A stretch of 64,000 bases of DNA from Babesia bigemina (taxonomy: Eukaryota): contig NC_027216.1 of assembly GCF_000981445.1 (NCBI RefSeq), positions 992,001 to 1,056,000 of the forward strand, given 5' to 3'. Below the pieces are notes generated by a model that saw nothing but the letters and a program-made list of their open reading frames with translations, was not told where the DNA came from and searched no databases. Shown here piece by piece: positions 905-64,000 of this stretch. Position 1 is the stretch's first letter. Every line of letters starts with the position of its first letter. Both the position numbers and the translations under genes were made by a program.

Positions 905-1882
905 CGAGTTCGTGCTTTATTCGTAATTCAATCAACTAATGAAATCCATCCGTGGCCACAGGAACTACATCTGGACTATCTGCTACCATGGGAGTTAAAT
1001 TCAGAATATGGATGCTAAAGCCATCCTGAAGCGGCAACAACCATAAAACGCTCTGTATTACCGGCTATAGCTTTTGTTCTTCATCACTACGATACCGCTG
1101 GTTGTATTTTTAGCGTTCAAAACCTTACTCATGAAGGTAAAAGCTGCGGCTATTGTGCCTGTCATCAACAGTGTGCTGACTACGTAGCCAGGTCCGATGT
1201 TCGGCTTTTCGAAACTATAGACTAACCGTGCTGTTGGTTGCAGGTTCCACGTCTAGTCATTGACTTCATCCGTGCTACCACCCAGCTGGGTTGAGAGTAT
1301 CATTCATGGTCTCGCGATGACTTATGTCCCTGTCCACCAACTCACACATTAGACAAGGTATCAATTGGCAACATGCCGACTAGACGATCTCTTTTACCTT
1401 AGACTACCTCACCGAATCATCATACCGTACAAACTACTAAGCAATTAACTGAGCACTTCGTGGAAGTTCACGTCGAGACCACGGACCCCTGCCTACAAGG
1501 CTGCGGTGTTAAGTCCTCATCGTATGAGTTGTTCAAGCCTGACAAACCCAAAATCTACGATGATAACGGAGAAGACAGCGGCCGCAAAATTGATATTCAG
1601 GCTGCCAATGAAGCAGCGTTCTACTGCCCCCCTCCGTACGTACTTGACCCACCCAACTGCTTTCACCAAGTGTTAGTGGAGGGTGAAGCAAAGAGCGTAA
1701 TCGATATAAGCAAGTCGCTGATTGAATCAGCATCCAACCACTTCGTCATCTTGAAGTTCGACAGAGAACTCGTAGGACCTGGCGAAACGCTGCGCCAGAC
1801 CCAGCCGTTGGAGTGTCGCTGCGTCACCATCAAGGGCATCGTCCTGTCTACCATCCACATCGAGCATTACTACGCCAAGTAA
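905..1882 (+). pseudogene. Broken paralog of the 6-Cys/s48-45-like gene at 59541-62417; only the last domain is intact
   Basis: ORF 1460-1882 (TDPCLQGCG...LFKP...AAFYCPPPYVLDPPNCF...LECRCVTIKGIVLSTI) is a close paralog of the C-terminus of 59541-62417. There is a weaker upstream remnant (..YLLPW, ~905-1000), and the 3' flank is also conserved between the copies. Confidence 0.8.
1151..1350 (-). mobile_element. Short 3'-terminal remnant (copy A) of the putative RLE non-LTR retroelement
   Basis: 1169-1253 closely matches 58216-58301 (identical 24-nt and 20-nt blocks). Minus-strand translation ELVDRDISHRETMNDTLNPAG aligns with KIVMRDMKPREDYDSVEDPGA of copy C. Confidence 0.6.
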
Positions 1883-2322
1883 TGAGTAGCTCAGATGTAG
1901 TAAATCTTTTTGTCAATGACAGAGTTTAATTGTCATAGTTCATGTTGGTCGTTATGTTGGTTTGTGTCTCCAGTAGCAGCATGACTTTCGGTTAGAATGT
2001 GGTATTTGCTGTTTCCAATTCCAAGACACATTATTGTGTTGAAATAACTGTTTATTCTTGCATGAGTCCTCGTAAGTCAATCCAATGTCGCATATCGTAA
2101 TCACGTACAATTATACCATTCCGTTGTTTTTCGAACTGCCTTAATGGGGGAGATGGGATTTGCCCGTCTACACATATTCCAAGAATTCATAAGATTTGCA
2201 GTGCCATTAATACACGAATATGGATAGCGCCAGATACATGTAACTATAGTTCAAAAGGTACAATGGTGTTATTGACAGACTGCATTGTCAGTTCCTGTCC
2301 ACAGAAGGCCATCGGTGGGAAG

Positions 2323-3687: not shown

Positions 3688-3924
3688 TTATCGCATTTAT
3701 GTAATCACAGGTTGTTATATGATGGAATGCAGTGCAGCAGTGATTAAATGTGCTGCTGAGGCGTATGCAGCGGGATGTGTAATAGATTCATGAAACTGTC
3801 GTATATACAACTGTGATTACACACCTATGCCACCTCCATGGCAACACTAAGGTAATGTAATAAAATAATTCATGGCATAATTAATTCGTGAGTAAGATAG
3901 ATTATAACCCGTGCCTATAGCTCG

Positions 3925-4290
3925 GGAGCGCCATGCTGGGTTTGGGAATGGGCAATCATCCGGGTGGGTGTACAAAATTTGTATACTTGTTTGGGTTGCT
4001 ATAAGCGACGTTTTGCGTCTTCATACGAATTTTTGTAAAGCTGCGTCTCGATTCAGTGTCGTAGATCACAGAGGCATGTGTTAGCGCATTAGCATTGTAG
4101 ACATACGGTTGGAAGTTGTTGGACCGAACTGGCGGAATCACCTTCCGTTAGAATTCATATCAGCCATATTGGCATAAAGTAACATTGTATGGGAACGTAG
4201 GCAACCGAAGTTCAGGAATTCTCACGTTCATTGGGACAACAGAACCCAGGATTCTTTCAGGCTGATTCGCCTTGGCGTGGAGCCACAGGG
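3925..4290 (+). mobile_element. Old diverged remnant (copy B), inverted homolog of 58300-58650
   Basis: 4131-4226 is the reverse-complement homolog of ~58343-58440 (ttcctgaacttcggtt; ggaaggtgattccgcca). Translation AIIRVGVQNLY...ELAESPSVRIHI weakly parallels TIVEIGITNQY...DLGISDRMEAHI of copy C. Confidence 0.5.
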
Positions 4291-5048
4291 TTTGAAACAA
4301 AGCATCTGCAAATTAAGGTTTTACATTAGGTGCTCGAAACAAGGCATTATTTTACAAGCTATGAAATGCCGGGATATTCACATACAACGTCAGCCTCGTA
4401 CACACTAGTTTCATACACGGCAGTGCGCTGGATTCCATAGCAACCACATATCACAGTTGACATCAAGAGTGGCGTGAGAAGAAGGTGATCACATATCATA
4501 GCGTGCAGTCCTTATGTGTCAGTATGCATTCGCAATCAAAGTTGCTGCAAGCACTGAAAGCAATAAACAATTACGCCAATCACGGAAGGCGGTAGAAGCA
4601 GTGTATACATGCCTCATCAGGTGACTGCTGTCTTGATAATAAGAAGGCACTATTAGACTATATTAACGCTGCGAAAAGCTATTTGCAACCCATGGTAACA
4701 CTTTAATCTTCAACGTCTGTCCAAACTTGCAACGACACTTATAAGCCTAGTATGGGCGACTAGTGCCGCATATATACGCTTACAATGACTCGCGATAGTT
4801 GTACTGAATGCCGCGTCAATGGTATCGAGATCGAAGAGCTGGGGCATCTGTGTAGTTCCTTCCTTTACCATAGGTATCTTTGGCATATCTTAATCTTTCT
4901 AAATTTAAATTAGAAGCCTATTTATTAGGTCTAAGCTGCACTTTTGCATTGCGTATTGTCGAAGACAACTCGTCTGTTTGCAACCTGGCCTGCAAATGGA
5001 CCAATCCATACAGGAGTAGTAGCTGCATAGTTTAACTCATTTTTCAAA

Positions 5049-6035
5049 ATGGTGTACACTTCGTTGACTGACATCCCTCGTAACCTTAAAGAAGGTATTG
5101 ACTGGTTGTTGGCCGTGAAGGGAGCCGATGCTGAAAAGAACTTAGCGGCCATGGGCGCTGCCCTATACGACTTTCTCGTAGACAAGCCTGTAGGCTTCAC
5201 GGAGGTGCCAGCTCTCGAGAATGTTAAGCTTATTTCGAAAGAGTTCCTGGAGCGACAGGAATTTAAGGACATGTGGCCTGCAAACGAGCTGCTGGGGAGA
5301 TTCAACAACCATGTGAAGACACAAAACATAGACCACCTTAAGTACCCGTTTCCCATAAACGACAGCGATTTTTCGAATGTCGTGCGTGCCAGGCGTGCCG
5401 TACCTGAAAAAATCGCAGAGGACCTAGGTAGGATTGTGGATGGTTGCGAGAGCTTCCTGGAGCATATCGTACTCCCTGAGCAGTATTTATCTGCTTATAA
5501 TTCAGAAGCAACTTGGAAGAAATCATGTTCGGAAAAGCCGGAAGATTGCGCAGTGGTACTTGTGGGTATTGCGCCAATGTTGTACGCAGGACTGCGTTCT
5601 TTGAAGGTCGCGTGCGACAATGAACGCCTAGGTGGGGTACCAGGGGCTAAGGCGATGAGCAGTTTGGGAAGTGTACTGTTGGCTGATGGTTACCAGGAAA
5701 AGCAATGGCCCACTGCAATGACCCCTTCATATGTCGCTAAGGCGTTGGAAGGTGTGAGTCATGAGGTGTTGGTCACGCTCTACGACTTCGCTGGATTCTG
5801 GGCTTTCTATGGATTGCATGACCCCAACAATGTTCCAGCTGTAAAATCTGGCGAGCTTGACAAGGACGCACAGGAGTTTATTGACTTCTACGTCAACATG
5901 AAGCCCATTAACCCTCCCAAGAAGAAGTTGCAGTTCATTAAGTCGCCCAGCACATACACTGCCACCGGATCGAACAACATGTATTACCCCTGGCTGCCAA
6001 CAGTGTTGGATATGGGTGATACTGTCCCACTTTAA
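5049..6035 (+). CDS. Short ves-related protein (VESA N-terminal-like domain only; ves2-like)
   Basis: Starts MVYTSLTDIPRNLKEGIDWL, the typical ves-family N-terminus, and carries an SEATW..SC...PEDCAVVLVGIAPMLYAGL motif. Single exon, 328 aa, no C-terminal TM segment. Confidence 0.8.
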   Translation: MVYTSLTDIPRNLKEGIDWLLAVKGADAEKNLAAMGAALYDFLVDKPVGFTEVPALENVKLISKEFLERQEFKDMWPANELLGRFNNHVKTQNIDHLKYPFPINDSDFSNVVRARRAVPEKIAEDLGRIVDGCESFLEHIVLPEQYLSAYNSEATWKKSCSEKPEDCAVVLVGIAPMLYAGLRSLKVACDNERLGGVPGAKAMSSLGSVLLADGYQEKQWPTAMTPSYVAKALEGVSHEVLVTLYDFAGFWAFYGLHDPNNVPAVKSGELDKDAQEFIDFYVNMKPINPPKKKLQFIKSPSTYTATGSNNMYYPWLPTVLDMGDTVPL

Positions 6036-6229: not shown

Positions 6230-6735
6230 CTATGAGTCAGTGCAGCGACCCGGCATCGCAGTAAACCGTGGATATGCCTGATACCATCTGGATGTCTGAG
6301 GAACACCGTCACTATCGTGGAGATAGGAATCACCAATCAATACAACCTAGTGGATACGGAGAAGTTCAAGAAGCAGAAGTAGGCAGACCTTATCGAGGAC
6401 CTCAAGGCGCGACAGTTCAACCAGCAGACCAAGATTTGGGTTATCCCCTACGTTATGACGTGGGAGGGAATAGTGACAAAGGAGCACAGCAAGTACAGAC
6501 GGGACCTGGGCATATCGGATCGCATGGAAGCCCACATACAAAGGGTAGTGATCCAAGAAACACATAAAATAGTGATGAGGGACATGAAACCAAGAGAAGA
6601 CTACGATTCTGTAGAAGACCCTGGTGCCCAAACTTGATGGACACCCGCATGGATGACACCAGTTACGATCGGCAACGGACCGATGTGGAACCCGCAGCCA
6701 GCACCAACGTGAGGCGCAGGCATGGTAAGGTTAAA
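6230..6735 (+). mobile_element. Best-preserved RLE endonuclease remnant of a non-LTR retrotransposon (copy C), pseudogenised
   Basis: MPDTIWMSE (6274-6300), then a +1 frameshift, then NTVTIVEIGITNQYNLVDTEKFKKQK*(TAG 6380-6382)ADLIEDL...WVIPYVMTWEGIVTKEHSKYRRDLGISDRMEAHIQ. This fits the PD..E..KxxKY RLE pattern. Confidence 0.75.
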
Positions 6736-58190: not shown

Positions 58191-58650
58191 TTATTATTAT
58201 GGTGTCTGTCTTTTACAGTGTGCTCTGACTACATGGCCAGGTCCGATGTTCGGCTTTTCAGGGATATATACTAAAGGTGCTGTTGGTTGCAGGTTCACGT
58301 CAGGCAGACCTATGTAACCCTTGAATTCTGTACCGGTGTAACCGTCGGGATTCCTGAACTTCGGTTTCCCGCATTACCATATAGCGTTTAATCATGTCAA
58401 TGTAACCAGATTTGAATTCCGATGGAAGGTGATTCCGCCACCTTCTCACCGCATCCGTGTGCCACGCTGGTAATGTAATAGTAACTGTCTGTGCGCGCTA
58501 CGGTGCGAGATTAAGGTGCTGAAGAGTCACATGGATTTGCCAGCCGACACAAAATATTACATCATATAGATACTCTAACAATCACTCGCATTTCGTGAAT
58601 TCACCCGGCGGATGGCCCAACGCCTCTCCCATGCTGCCGACTCCGGCAGC
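58191..58650 (-). mobile_element. Retroelement remnant (copy D), ending in a short TAA-repeat tail
   Basis: 3' part matches 1169-1253 and 5' part matches inverted 3925-4290; ends ...cacactgtaaaagacagacaccataataataa in element sense. Confidence 0.55.
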
Positions 58651-58720: not shown

Positions 58721-59235
58721 TATTATTATGTTCTCTCATCTTATAGTGTGCTATCTGGCTACATGTGACTTGTGTTACTGTTAAGTTTACCAAGGCTACC
58801 GCCTCACTCTGAAACCGGTTGCGGGATCCACGTCGGTCCATTGCCGATCGTCACTGGTGCCATCCATGCGGGCGTCTATCAAGTTTGGGGTAGAGGTTAG
58901 TTGGCCGGGTCATTATCATCAATAGGTATCACGTTACTCATCGCAGCGTACGGATTTGTAGCTCTAACATCGCGTTGGATGTGGGAATATATGCGATCGG
59001 AGATGCCAAGAGCTAGTAGATGCATATTATACTGTCGCTCCACAATCCATTTCCACGTCACAACATTTGGTACAACCATGGGCATCGTCTTATCCTTTAA
59101 AAGGCATTGGTACCTTTCACGCTTCTATGGCATCGTCTCCACAACGTTATATGCGCTGTAAATCGCCACATCGAGAATGGCGATAGCATTGCGATGATAA
59201 TGTATCGCCAATGATGGGTGTCTTGCAGAGGAGAA
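58721..59235 (-). mobile_element. Retroelement RLE remnant (copy E), homolog of copy C
   Basis: Single minus frame: RHPSLAIHYHRNAIAILDVAIYSAYNVVETMP*KRERYQCLLKD..VVPNVVTWKWIV..LGISDRIYSHIQR. 58817-58889 matches 6627-6699 at 65/73 nt (manual count). Confidence 0.7.
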
Positions 59236-59540
59236 TTTTGTTGGGAAAGACAACGATGCCTCATACATAAAATTATAGTTACATAAATTGCATAAAAAAG
59301 TTATCAATGATATAACATTAACACTGTTGTCTAATATATTAATTTTTTAGTCCTTATTTTTTGAGGAAAATTCTTCCATAACAAGGCAGCTAGCTGGGGA
59401 GGTGGAATCTTCACTGCCACTGCTTTGAAAATTACTAGCCCTTCTTATTAATTAATTCATATATTCATGCGTGGTAAGTTGGTGGGAGGCCATTTTTACT
59501 CAGGGTTATTTTTGTCTGTCGTCGGACGAAAAATATAACC

Positions 59541-62417
59541 ATGGCGCAATGTATGAGAGTCCAGTTGGCAATTTGCGCTATAGTTCTGCAGCTTATTGGA
59601 TTCATAGGCGCAGTGGAATATGGTTTCATTAATAATATGAGTTCTTTGGGTGCCAATCCCCTAGTTGTATACCACATAAACATGGATGAAATTGGGATAG
59701 CAACTCTGACATGCCCACGCCAAGTCAACGGAACTGAGTACGTATGGAATCCCCAACCAACAGCTGATCACGACGTCAGTCTCAAAACCTATGTGATTGA
59801 AGACGGTAAATTTCACTTCGTCCCTTTTTCAAAGGTAGTGGTCACCGAAGCACCACGCCCATATGTTCGGAAAGTGTCAAAGGAGTCGCAAACAGACTTG
59901 CATATCGATCTAATGGATGACGATATATATGCCATTACTGAAGAACGTTTAGTATTCATATGTGGTCCAAGGGATTTGGTCTTGACAGATGCTCTGCAAG
60001 GCCAACTTGCTCGCCTACCGGAGATTTATGAAACGGATATTTATTCATGGGATTCAACCACGCCATTGATTGAAGAAATAGCTAAGATAGGAATAAGCCT
60101 GGGTGTAATATTCTTGCACAGAGGCCTTAATCATCAATTACTGCAAGGCTGTGGAAGTCGTCCCTCGAAACTCTTTGCTCGAGATAATGACGTGACTGTA
60201 GACCCTATCACTGGCACACGTTCTTGTGTAGTAGATCCAATGTCGACATTACGCACTGGGTTCGTTTGCAAAGGCAGAATAGAACCGAACGATTGCATGA
60301 AATACCTCCTGTACGAAGACAGAGTGGTAACTGCTCCTCGACCATATTCGTATCGTTATTTTAATACCCATAAGCCTTGGGTGGTAGCTAGATATTTTAA
60401 TGACGTAGCATTACCCCGTTTCAACGGCGAATGTCGATGCATAGATCCTAAGACTGGTCACGTGAAAGCAAGGATGGAGATTCGTTGGAAAACTGAATAC
60501 GTTTGTGACATAGCTAGCATGATTGTTCGTAACAGGTTGAAGCCTATTAGTGGGCCGTGGTGTTCAGTAATGCTACATCCGGGTGCTACGTTGACCATTA
60601 AGTTGCCAAAACAGACAGACAAGTCGGCTGCTACCGGCGAAGAATACGAAGAAGACGTTGACGATATTGACTATGATCCTTCGACAGTTCCATTTTCGCA
60701 ACTTCCATCTACCCACGCATACGAAAGTGAATTCAAGCCGGACACGGAGTTGACGCTACGCCAAATACAAACGATTTATGACATCAATGATTACGACGAA
60801 ATCGTGACCAACAAAGCGTTCACTGGCGACGTGCTCGAGGTAGATATTTCACAAATGGAGAGAGGAGAGGTTAAGCTGAAGTACCATACGGGCAGACCTC
60901 TTGCATTACGAAGTGGATACAATTCGTTCTTATATCATTGGACATTCATATCTAGGAACGAATACGTTCTAGAAAAGATACGCGCTGTGGTGAACGTCTC
61001 ATTTGCGCCTACTTATCGCTACAATATTATTGGTTGTGACCGATGGAGGCCAGGTATGTTTGATCCGGCAAATGACGTTGGCTCTCTTACAATTAGAAAC
61101 ATGCGGAATGGTATAGGGAAAATAGCTGAATGGCTGTTAGATGTCATGAGTGGCGAGGAACAAGCGGGTATTCAATGCCAACCCAATGAGGAGCTGTTTC
61201 CAAACAATTGTGAGTCCACAGGATACGATCTTTCCTCCAATCAGGTTGCGCCATTCCCTACATCTGTGCGCAATGTCACACTTTACCCCGTTCGAGGATT
61301 TCAGGTATTCGAGATGAGCTTCCAAAATGTGCCTGTCAGTCACGCTTGCAGTTGTGTCGATGAACATGGATACGAGACATCTAGGCTAATTTTGAGATCC
61401 AACCGTCGTGAGGAGTATGAGTATACAGTAAGTCGTGAAGAGGCAAATCAAAGGTTGCTGCCCTACTCATTACTGCCCTGGACCGAGGTGGCTTTCTTAC
61501 ACGGCGATCGCACTCCTATGCAATCAATTAAGCTACACAACACACCCCATAGACCTATGAAACTACATTCGGGCACAGTATTATCCATGCGGTGTGTTAT
61601 GTACCACGCATTGTACAACGGTGAGAATAACGCTGCCGCAATGCCTACCTGGTTACCAGATTATCCTGGATTTAACCATTACAAAATATATACTACCGCA
61701 GAAGGAGATAGGTTAATTAAAAGGCCACACGACGAGAGTATAGCTGGCACAAGACGTGGATTCCAAGTCACGCTGTCAGAATACACAGAAGAATATAGTG
61801 ATTTGCTAATCAAATCCAACAGTGGCTCAATTTTGGTATCCAGGGATCCAGATCACTCGGAATACGTGCCCATGACATTCGTTTGTGGTAAGGAGATTTC
61901 AGAATCAGATTTTGATCAAAGCAACGATAACGCAGCTGCAGCTGCCATTCCCCCACCTGTAGCACTATTAGAGGAATACACGTGGAACGTAGTTCAAATT
62001 GACGTAGAGATGACGGACCCATACATGCAAGGGTGCGGAATTACTGACTCAAGAGATACTCTATTCAAGCCCGAGACACCCAAACTCTACAGCTCCATCA
62101 TACGACACCCTCGCGGCTGCAAGATCGACATTCAGACTGCGGGTGAGGCGGCGTTCTACTGCCCAGCACCGTACGTCCTGGACCCACCCAACTGCTTCGA
62201 CCAGGTCTCCGTGAACGGTGAAGTGAAGAACCTCAGCGACATCAGCCAGTCTTTGGTGGCTTCTCGAACTAAGCACTTCGTTACCTTGCGGTTCGACAGT
62301 GAACTCATTGGACCCGGGGAAAAGCTGCGCCAGACCCCGCCACTTGAATGCCGCTGCGTCACCGTCAAAGGCATCGTCCTCTCCACCATCCAGATTGGGA
62401 ACTACTACAACAAGTAA
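59541..62417 (+). CDS. Secreted Cys-rich protein with several s48/45 (6-Cys)-like domains, multicopy family
   Basis: N-terminal signal peptide; repeated GC...C...(F/I)xC....PxxC...CxC modules (e.g. MQGCG..CKIDI..FYCPAPYVLDPPNCFDQV..LECRC); paralog fragment at 1460-1882. Confidence 0.75.
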   Translation: MAQCMRVQLAICAIVLQLIGFIGAVEYGFINNMSSLGANPLVVYHINMDEIGIATLTCPRQVNGTEYVWNPQPTADHDVSLKTYVIEDGKFHFVPFSKVVVTEAPRPYVRKVSKESQTDLHIDLMDDDIYAITEERLVFICGPRDLVLTDALQGQLARLPEIYETDIYSWDSTTPLIEEIAKIGISLGVIFLHRGLNHQLLQGCGSRPSKLFARDNDVTVDPITGTRSCVVDPMSTLRTGFVCKGRIEPNDCMKYLLYEDRVVTAPRPYSYRYFNTHKPWVVARYFNDVALPRFNGECRCIDPKTGHVKARMEIRWKTEYVCDIASMIVRNRLKPISGPWCSVMLHPGATLTIKLPKQTDKSAATGEEYEEDVDDIDYDPSTVPFSQLPSTHAYESEFKPDTELTLRQIQTIYDINDYDEIVTNKAFTGDVLEVDISQMERGEVKLKYHTGRPLALRSGYNSFLYHWTFISRNEYVLEKIRAVVNVSFAPTYRYNIIGCDRWRPGMFDPANDVGSLTIRNMRNGIGKIAEWLLDVMSGEEQAGIQCQPNEELFPNNCESTGYDLSSNQVAPFPTSVRNVTLYPVRGFQVFEMSFQNVPVSHACSCVDEHGYETSRLILRSNRREEYEYTVSREEANQRLLPYSLLPWTEVAFLHGDRTPMQSIKLHNTPHRPMKLHSGTVLSMRCVMYHALYNGENNAAAMPTWLPDYPGFNHYKIYTTAEGDRLIKRPHDESIAGTRRGFQVTLSEYTEEYSDLLIKSNSGSILVSRDPDHSEYVPMTFVCGKEISESDFDQSNDNAAAAAIPPPVALLEEYTWNVVQIDVEMTDPYMQGCGITDSRDTLFKPETPKLYSSIIRHPRGCKIDIQTAGEAAFYCPAPYVLDPPNCFDQVSVNGEVKNLSDISQSLVASRTKHFVTLRFDSELIGPGEKLRQTPPLECRCVTVKGIVLSTIQIGNYYNK

Positions 62418-63352
62418 CAAGTAGCTCAGATTTGGTCACTCTTTTGGCAATGAACCACTTTAATTGTCATTGTTCATGTTGGTCGATCTGGTGGTTTGTG
62501 TCACGCGTGAGAGAATTGCTTTGGGTAGAGTGTTGCGATTATAATTGCCAGTCTAACGACATATTCTTGTGTTGTCGTAGCTTTTTGTAACTAGCGTGAA
62601 TGGCCATGGGCCCGGTGAAGACCGTACTGTGGAATTACATGTCACAACCACTTAGTTGGGCACTGTCTACCGCAGGCATTAGGAAGATGCAACTTAGAGG
62701 TTTGCATCTCCGTTCGCATTTTGAAACCTTAACAATGCCCTTAACACACGACAAAGAGCAATACGTGGTACCTTGAACGGGACTTCACTGAGCCCCCAAT
62801 TTGGGTGAGCAATTACTGCGGCGGTGCCTGAGCACGTTGGTCGACCGCTGGGAGTGGGTGGCTAGACCGTGTGGATTTCACCCTATTTAGGCGAATCTCG
62901 GTCATTCTTTGCCTATGTATGAGTTAATCTTCGGTGTGGTGGCATTTATCGTCAGCATCGTCATAAGTCTCGAGGTCGTAACCCCAGAATGCACCCTAGC
63001 AGAGGCTTTGAGGGGCGCCCCGCAAACATGGCCACCCACTTATTAGTTACCCCGCAGGAGTTGCTACGCAAGTGCGCACAATGCCAGTCTATGTCGGGTA
63101 TCCACATTTTCAGAGTTTGAGTGGAAGTGACTGCAATTTGATGGAGATTATGCTGGCACCATAACCAGTCATAGTTTAGTTAACCGTGATTAGCAAGAAC
63201 GTGCAGGAGCAGCCAGCATTGAAAGCACGCTTACGAGAGCGTACCTTGAGAGCAGCCGGGTTGTGTATCTCTACCTGAAGACGGTACTTTGAGGTTCAGG
63301 TACACTGCTAATTTTTGTCCGCGGCAGTGCTTTTGAAACCGTCACGTGCAAG

Positions 63353-64000
63353 ATGGCTGTGTCAGCAGCAGAGAATGAACAAACCTATCAGGCAGTAAGT
63401 GATTCTACGGACTGCAATAGTCATGCGAAACACAACGAGGATGGGAATGAGGGAATGCTGATGGATATTAGCGAAATGAAGGCAACGGTGGAGGATAAGA
63501 TGGAAACGAGGGAGTCGCTACAGGATATTAACGAAATGAAGGCAACGGTGGAGGATAAGATGGAAACGAGGGAGTCGCTACAGGATATTAACGAAATGAA
63601 GGCAACGGTGGAGGATAAGATGGAAACGAGGGAGTCGCTACAGGATATTAGCGAAATGAAGGCAACGGTGGAGGATAAGATGGAAACGAGGGAGTCGCTA
63701 CAGGATATTAACGAAATGAAGGCAACGGTGGAGGATAAGATGGAAACGAGGGAGTCGCTACAGGATATTAGCGAAATGAAGGCAACGGTGGAGGATAAGA
63801 TGGAAACGAGGGAGTCGCTACAGGATATTAACGAAATGAAGGCAACGGTGGAGGATAAGATGGAAACGAGGGAGTCGCTACAGGATATTAACGAAATGAA
63901 GGCAACGGTGGAGGATAAGATGGAAACGAGGGAGTCGCTACAGGATATGAGGGAAATGATGAAGTTGCTGAAGGATATGAGGGAAATGATGAAGTCGCTG
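63353..64000 (+). CDS. Tandem-repeat protein, 3'-partial; upstream exons are possible
   Basis: Open frame from ATG 63353 to the window end, encoding (D I [N/S] E M K A T V E D K M E T R E S L Q)x8 and then DMREMMKLLK-type units. Confidence 0.7.
   Translation, partial: MAVSAAENEQTYQAVSDSTDCNSHAKHNEDGNEGMLMDISEMKATVEDKMETRESLQDINEMKATVEDKMETRESLQDINEMKATVEDKMETRESLQDISEMKATVEDKMETRESLQDINEMKATVEDKMETRESLQDISEMKATVEDKMETRESLQDINEMKATVEDKMETRESLQDINEMKATVEDKMETRESLQDMREMMKLLKDMREMMKSL
63463..64000. repeat. Coding minisatellite: 8 near-identical 60-bp units followed by 30-bp units
   Basis: Directly visible; the 60-bp units differ at a single A/G position. Confidence 0.98.

What the first reader, a model, noticed from the sequence alone, without database searches (positions are those of the whole stretch)
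58721..59235. Second, independently decayed copy of the same element 52 kb away on the opposite strand
Two small ORFs in the track (59125-59307 and 58897-59085) lie in one frame separated by a single stop. They align with copy C: RNAIAILDVAI/RNTVTIVEIGI, VPNVVTWKWIV/IPYVMTWEGIV and LGISDRIYSHIQR/LGISDRMEAHIQR. The catalytic PD has become PS and the lesions differ between copies. This shows a dispersed repeat family rather than a single odd pseudogene.
Basis: seen in the sequence. Interest (0 to 1): 0.8.

Follow-up and report, generated by a model that had tools for sequence, protein, structure and literature searches.

The report
Defective retrotransposon subfamily in cattle parasite
This broken piece in a cattle blood parasite's genome is the tail end of an already known jumping gene, but it is an older-bodied version found in at least three near-identical copies, which likely spreads by borrowing the machinery of the intact element.

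Summary
The alignment is real (score 150; 0 of 10,000 shuffles reach it). Both pieces are 3' fragments of a Babesia bigemina non-LTR retrotransposon: a 1347-aa protein with reverse transcriptase, zinc knuckle and an R2-like restriction-like endonuclease. LINE-like elements in this species are already published (PMC9141347).

The 6.3-kb copy is young (93/101 residues match the intact protein). The 59-kb copy is a mosaic. Its core matches at only 36/101 residues and diverged under protein-level selection (omega 0.03, p 2.5e-8). Its tail matches at 19/22. Two near-identical sister copies are on record at other loci (60/62 aa), one ending at the same premature stop. So it is a separate defective subfamily: old body, current 3' tail, copied after it broke.

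Trans-mobilisation by the intact LINE is my best reading (0.5). DNA-level duplication or gene conversion (0.35) is not excluded, because the flanks of the sister copies could not be seen. The nearest named non-piroplasm relatives are mostly microsporidian elements; horizontal transfer is not shown.

The parts
58781..59193 (-). Copy B: 3' fragment of an RLE-type non-LTR retrotransposon, defective subfamily (whole homologous span)
   Evidence: tblastx and blastn of the window against itself; tblastn of family proteins; family profile E 1e-9
58891..59193 (-). Diverged core: C-terminal part of the restriction-like endonuclease domain; 36/101 aa identical to intact P0004; stops at 59125-59127 and 58897-58899; 24-nt in-frame gap at 59092/59091
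58804..58890 (-). Young tail: C-terminal coding end of the element, 72/87 nt identical to copy C; its 22-aa stretch matches intact copies at 19/22 and decayed copy P0006 at 21/22; two stops at 58876-58881; end stop 58804-58806
58781..58803 (-). About 22 nt of short 3' untranslated end shared with copy C (17 of 23 aligned; 9 of 500 shuffles as high)
58897..59085 (-). 62-aa ORF inside the core; 60/62 identical to P0167 and 47 of the first 52 identical to P0170, both from other loci
59212..59217 (-). 'PS' dipeptide, possible remnant of the catalytic PD; outside the significant alignment
6277..6734 (+). Copy C: 5'-truncated young copy of the autonomous family (93/101 aa identical to P0004 in the core); frameshift before 6299, TAG 6380-6382, TGA 6635-6637

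Best explanation
The 59-kb piece is one of at least three near-identical copies of a broken retrotransposon fragment that joins an old, diverged endonuclease core to a 3' tail matching the intact Babesia bigemina LINE, and it likely spreads as a non-autonomous passenger whose RNA would be copied by the intact element's reverse transcriptase. Shown: identity as an RLE-type LINE fragment, the mosaic of old core and young tail, loss of coding capacity, and sister copies. Inferred: the core comes from an older sister subfamily that diverged while still coding and then decayed; it acquired the current tail by template switching or by conversion from 3' cDNA; the tail is what the active protein recognises for target-primed reverse transcription (established for other LINEs, from memory); the copies arose by retrotransposition.
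For: Parent: P0001 hits B. bigemina and B. ovata RT proteins at 79-93%; PF00078 E 5e-30; the family profile hits R2 proteins over RT and, separately, over the C-terminal stretch (E 7e-4); the AlphaFold model of P0003 (pLDDT 89) has R2 structures as its top 7 Foldseek hits (E 6e-9 to 2e-6, TM about 0.6). An active donor is plausible: 8 accessions of a 1347-aa protein, two sequences each recorded under 3 accessions. Old core: 162/303 nt identical to copy C; codon positions 56/68/38 of 101; base-conditional permutation p 1e-4 for position 3 and 0 of 20,000 for BLOSUM score; GY94 omega 0.03, about 0.16 as upper bound, p 2.5e-8 against omega 1. Decay: only 15 of 28 family-conserved sites kept, against 22-27 of 28 in five intact relatives. 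Young tail: 72/87 nt against 162/303, Fisher p 5e-7; 19/22 against 36/101 aa to the intact protein, p 2e-5. Copied after breaking: P0167 is 60/62 identical and ends at the same codon as the window's TAA; P0170 carries the same core and the tail in a shifted frame, 26/30 identical. Copy B ends where copy C ends, about 22 nt past the stop, and B and C share no flanks (28 and 236 of 500 shuffles as high).
Against: No target-site duplication stood out (best exact repeats 7-8 nt, at chance level) and no poly(A) is visible. The flanks of P0167 and P0170 could not be read, so retrotransposition is not separated from DNA duplication. Only three copies are known, and only through annotated proteins. 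The tail does not fold better than shuffles (z +0.85 and +1.68). Both window ends share other repeats, which shows DNA-level shuffling here. Four-fold sites were identical in 10 of 16, so synonymous saturation is not uniform. No intact protein of the supposed older subfamily was found. The shared TGA in B and C is unexplained: P0170 lacks it, so it is a parallel change or an exchange.
Confidence: 0.5

Rival explanations
1. An old decayed LINE relic had its 3' end overwritten once by ectopic gene conversion from a young copy, and was then multiplied passively inside duplicated blocks of the multigene islands. It was never mobile in this form.
For: The junction is in exact register, as homology-guided exchange would give. 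The two window ends share a 6-Cys 3' end (73% over 583 nt) and two other repeats at 76-83%. Ectopic gene conversion among ves loci is described as frequent in Babesia (PMC4066756, passages). No TSD found.
Against: The shared repeats are not in the same order or orientation at the two window ends, and B and C share no flanks. The young tract is exactly the 3' end, where LINE reverse transcription starts.
Confidence: 0.35
2. The core is a domesticated host gene derived from the endonuclease domain that evolved under selection as a small protein and has recently broken, or still works as the 62-aa ORF.
For: Strong codon signal of purifying selection and no frameshift; sister copies are annotated as hypothetical proteins starting at the same Met; an upstream in-frame ATG exists at 59268.
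Against: Internal stops; P0170 is frameshifted and internally deleted; no orthologue outside B. bigemina among 1.84 billion representatives or in the word search (weak: 4 candidates, none scored).
Confidence: 0.08
3. One reading: a copy of the same young element that decayed neutrally in place.
For: Best matches are the B. bigemina/B. ovata subfamily, and the tree places it there (SH-aLRT 98, very long branch). Two new stops in the core are compatible with neutral decay (p 0.21).
Against: Omega 1 rejected; core and tail differ sharply in age; near-identical sister copies exist.
Confidence: 0.04

Closest known systems
LINE-like elements of Babesia bigemina, B. ovata, B. divergens and Theileria equi (PMC9141347)
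   Same: Same species and element class; the paper gives 0.97% of the B. bigemina genome as LINE-like. RT-motif gene expansions are also noted for B. caballi and B. ovata (PMC10463595 passages).
   Different: In the passages, section 3.2 and supplement rows that I read there is no domain anatomy for the B. bigemina element, no defective subfamily and no mosaic; no B. bigemina-named model appears in the supplement tables held. Tables S5 and S6 were not in the file held.
R2 retrotransposons (PDB 9nl2, 9dou, 9nl3, 8gh6, 8ibw-z)
   Same: RT, CCHC knuckle and restriction-like endonuclease in the same order; fold match of the C-terminal module.
   Different: Only 14-18% identity in the fold match; copies are dispersed near multigene islands rather than shown to target rDNA; the exact clade (R4/Dong, NeSL or other) was not tested.
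Microsporidian RLE elements (Vairimorpha, Hamiltosporidium, Enteropsectra, Pancytospora, Dictyocoela records)
   Same: Most named non-piroplasm hits among the 120 listed; 31-47% identity over the RT-endonuclease region.
   Different: Babesia elements form their own clade (support 100) with a longer loop and their own tail.
Non-autonomous LINE partners that share the 3' end of an active LINE (trypanosomatid RIME/NARTc, Entamoeba EhSINE; recalled, no call)
   Same: Short, non-coding, multi-copy, 3' end matching an autonomous LINE.
   Different: Here the body is a decayed endonuclease from a related LINE lineage; copy number is low as far as seen; mobility is not shown; no tRNA or Rfam head.

Membership tests
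RLE-type non-LTR retrotransposon (parent element, P0004) | Non-LTR-type reverse transcriptase | tested here: met
   PF00078 E 5e-30; all 10 PDB sequence hits are L1-type or R2 proteins
RLE-type non-LTR retrotransposon (parent element, P0004) | CCHC zinc knuckle after the RT | tested here: met
   C-x2-C-x7-H-x4-C seen in P0003/P0004; C10 and H18 invariant in 73 sequences
RLE-type non-LTR retrotransposon (parent element, P0004) | C-terminal restriction-like endonuclease (PD...D/E...K...KY) | tested here: met
   P90 D91 K122 K125 Y126 invariant; profile hit to R2Tg C-terminus E 7e-4; top 7 Foldseek hits are R2
RLE-type non-LTR retrotransposon (parent element, P0004) | No apurinic endonuclease, integrase or RNase H | tested here: met
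   Pfam scan of P0004 to E 1 gave only RVT_1 and a sub-threshold Cas9_C
RLE-type non-LTR retrotransposon (parent element, P0004) | Sequence-specific target site | not testable with these tools
   No genome DNA held; the two window copies share no flanks
R4/Dong, NeSL or R2 clade in the strict sense | Groups with reference elements of that clade in an RT tree | not tested
   No curated reference elements were in my trees
Autonomous LINE (copy B itself) | Intact RT and endonuclease ORF | tested here: not met
   The family profile finds only the two 3' fragments in the window; stops and loss of 13 of 28 conserved sites
Non-autonomous LINE-derived retroposon | 3' tail shared with an autonomous LINE | tested here: met
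   19/22 aa in the tail against 36/101 in the core; 72/87 nt to copy C
Non-autonomous LINE-derived retroposon | Several near-identical defective copies | tested here: met
   Window copy plus P0167 and P0170; three known
Non-autonomous LINE-derived retroposon | Copies at unrelated sites with insertion marks (TSD, common 3' end) | tested here: inconclusive
   No TSD above chance at the window copy; flanks of the other copies not available
Non-autonomous LINE-derived retroposon | Transcribed and mobilised in trans | not testable with these tools
Classical SINE | tRNA-, 7SL- or 5S-derived Pol III head | tested here: not met
   0 tRNA genes and 0 Rfam matches at gathering score in the window
Domesticated retrotransposon gene | Intact ORF with orthologues in related species | tested here: not met
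   Internal stops; only B. bigemina records among the 3 relevant of 4 hits

The most novel reading that the evidence does not exclude
B. bigemina carries an active R2-like LINE together with a SINE-like passenger built from a dead relative's body and the live element's tail, the first such pair described in Apicomplexa; the LINE lineage was exchanged horizontally with microsporidia, and the pair seeds homology in antigen-gene islands.
Probability: 0.2. Interest if true: 0.7.

Novelty: new member of a known kind. Interest (0 to 1): 0.4.

Why it matters
Apicomplexan genomes have few mobile elements, and the Babesia LINEs have only been counted, not dissected, in the papers I could read. A defective partner that keeps the live element's 3' end would mark the sequence the reverse transcriptase recognises and would show that retrotransposition in trans works in this parasite. 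Both window copies sit beside surface-protein family genes, so such repeats could supply homology for ectopic recombination.

Tried and rejected
No genome was held for the window and no sequencing reads could be laid, so there is no copy count at DNA level. Pfam and PDB sequence scans of the fragments alone found nothing. Rfam and ARAGORN found nothing. A word search with copy B gave 4 candidates and no scored hit; the fourth hit of the profile-free search, P0169, is an unrelated repeat protein and was dropped. Metagenome contigs held no locus (107 pattern matches, 0 confirmed). A structured tail was not supported. TSDs were at chance level. Co-duplication of B with C was rejected for lack of shared flanks. 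AT-biased mutation as the cause of the third-position excess was rejected by base-conditional permutation. The short endonuclease tree put T. equi deep among microsporidia-like rows, but the 727-column trees left it unresolved; piroplasm monophyly was neither shown nor rejected (support 7), and monophyly of 9 named microsporidian rows was not rejected (p-AU 0.308). So two invasions and horizontal transfer are not shown. Both careful trees did not finish; quick trees were used. The RT trees used 41 rows that I chose from the 120 listed of 329 hits. The bacterial promoter scan is not meaningful for this eukaryote. The scan's earlier findings had nothing. The neighbouring repeat at 58200-58650 stayed unidentified.

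Full report
Setting. The window is eukaryotic: a core of housekeeping genes lies between two lower-GC ends. The right end holds an s48/45 6-Cys gene at 59541-62417. Near-identical named relatives place it in Babesia bigemina. No whole genome was held, so everything outside the window comes from protein records.

Observation. The two small ORFs are in one frame with a single stop between them. Their translation aligns with the 6.3-kb copy (copy C) at score 150 against shuffle mean 24.7 and maximum 59, 0 of 10,000. Homology of the 59-kb copy (copy B) runs from 59193 to 58781. The PD-to-PS claim is plausible in register but lies outside the significant alignment. Most lesions differ, but one TGA stands at the same codon in both copies.

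What the parent is. Copy C, read with X at its stop, hits four Babesia proteins at 79-93% identity (4 of 31 candidates). The longest, P0004 (1347 aa), has RT, a CCHC knuckle and a PD...E...K...KY module; these residues are invariant in 73 aligned relatives. The family profile matches R2 proteins over RT and separately over the C-terminal stretch. A model of the C-terminal 235 residues (pLDDT 89) has R2 structures as its first seven Foldseek hits. This is an RLE-type non-LTR retrotransposon. Eight accessions of the 1347-aa protein are listed, two sequences under three accessions each, which suggests recent amplification. A family profile finds only the two 3' fragments in the window.

Copy B is a mosaic. 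Against copy C, the core is 162/303 nt identical, with codon positions 56, 68 and 38 of 101. Permuting bases within each base class gives p 1e-4 for the third-position deficit and 0 of 20,000 for the BLOSUM score. A codon model gives omega 0.03 with an upper bound near 0.16 (p 2.5e-8 against 1). There is no frameshift over 130 codons. So most of the divergence happened under selection on protein. Against that, 10 of 16 four-fold sites are identical, so saturation is uneven. The core has also decayed: it keeps 15 of 28 family-conserved sites, where five intact relatives keep 22-27. The tail is different: 72/87 nt identical to copy C (Fisher p 5e-7), omega not distinguishable from 1, and 19/22 residues identical to intact copies against 36/101 in the core. 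A tree of the endonuclease region puts copy B with the B. bigemina/B. ovata subfamily on a very long branch; its exact place is unsure.

Copy B has sisters. A full HMMER search gave four hits: P0167, P0006, P0168 and one unrelated repeat protein that I dropped. P0167 is 60/62 identical to the window's 62-aa ORF and ends at the same codon; its cluster mate P0170 has the same core and then the tail in a shifted frame, 26/30 identical. Both are B. bigemina records on different contigs, and neither is the window's own sequence. So the diverged, already broken form was copied at least twice. P0170 reads through the codon where B and C both have TGA, so that stop arose after the B-type copies split; it is a parallel change or an exchange. 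P0170's accession is two numbers from one accession of a full-length copy, a hint that they are neighbours.

Mechanism. Shown: LINE origin, old core, young tail, loss of coding, several copies. Inferred: an older sister subfamily decayed, gained the current 3' end by template switch or cDNA conversion, and is copied in trans because LINE proteins start reverse transcription at the 3' end of the RNA (established knowledge, recalled). I give this 0.5. The main rival is one conversion event followed by passive DNA duplication (0.35): the two window ends share a 6-Cys 3' end and two other repeats, and ectopic conversion is frequent at ves loci (PMC4066756, passages). No TSD or poly(A) was seen and the tail has no unusual fold. 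B and C share no flanks. A domesticated gene (0.08) and simple neutral decay (0.04) fit worse.

Origin of the family. Among the best 120 of 329 hits, most named non-piroplasm relatives are microsporidian; many others are unnamed metagenome proteins, and a few carry animal or bacterial labels. Babesia elements form one clade (support 100) among these. But monophyly of the named microsporidian rows is not rejected (p-AU 0.308) and the place of T. equi is open. Horizontal transfer is a lead only.

What is known. PMC9141347 (passages, section 3.2, supplement part 1 and searched rows) reports LINE-like elements in B. bigemina, B. ovata, B. divergens and T. equi and leaves one or two invasions open; its Tables S5 and S6 were not in the file held and could bear on this. 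PMC10463595 (passages) notes RT-motif gene expansion in B. caballi and B. ovata. PMC5660447 had no occurrence of my three terms; PMC4066756 uses 'transposition' for ves genes only in the passages shown; PMC7313128 and PMC13627686 (passages) added nothing on this element. Searches for a defective partner or a microsporidian link (listings only unless named above) found no such report; the library lacks most subscription journals.

Verdict. The repeat family is real and known. The new part is that the 59-kb copy is a distinct defective subfamily with an old body and a current tail. Novelty: new member of a known kind. Interest 0.4.

Noticed in passing
window 1427-2218 and 61959-62752: 3' end and downstream region of the 6-Cys (s48/45) gene is duplicated at the other end of the window: 73% over 583 nt, omega 0.11. 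The left copy looks like a fragment.
   Followed up: partly
window 58198-58301 and 1151-1253: A 105-nt repeat at 83% identity, with a 24-nt exact core; no Rfam match, no unusual fold.
   Followed up: partly
window 58257-58648 (minus) and 3920-4312 (plus): A second dispersed repeat, adjoining the first and 130 nt downstream of copy B. One frame reads like a decayed gene; it matched no fetched protein. Unidentified.
   Followed up: partly
window 5049-6035: 328-aa ORF just upstream of copy C with weak similarity (E 2e-7) to the non-RT part of P0036, a record that carries PF12785; likely a ves-like gene (that PF12785 is VESA1 N-terminal is recalled).
   Followed up: partly
P0022, P0027, P0036, P0150: Several annotated Babesia proteins fuse the LINE ORF to long unrelated sequence, which suggests insertions in or beside large surface-antigen-like genes; Pfam did not name the extra parts in P0022, P0027 and P0150.
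   Followed up: partly
P0006: Another decayed young copy lacks 9 residues at nearly the same place where copy B lacks 8, and has the tail closest to copy B (21/22). Shared history or a deletion hot spot.
   Followed up: no
P0035: B. ovata has a second, distinct LINE subfamily (52/101 to P0004 in the core), so several subfamilies have coexisted in this lineage.
   Followed up: partly
window 63440-63999: Tandem array of a 60-nt unit, about 94% identical between neighbours, open in one frame.
   Followed up: no
P0067, P0078, P0091, P0100: Records labelled as bacteria, octopus or mite fall among microsporidia-like elements in the tree; possibly contamination of those assemblies.
   Followed up: no
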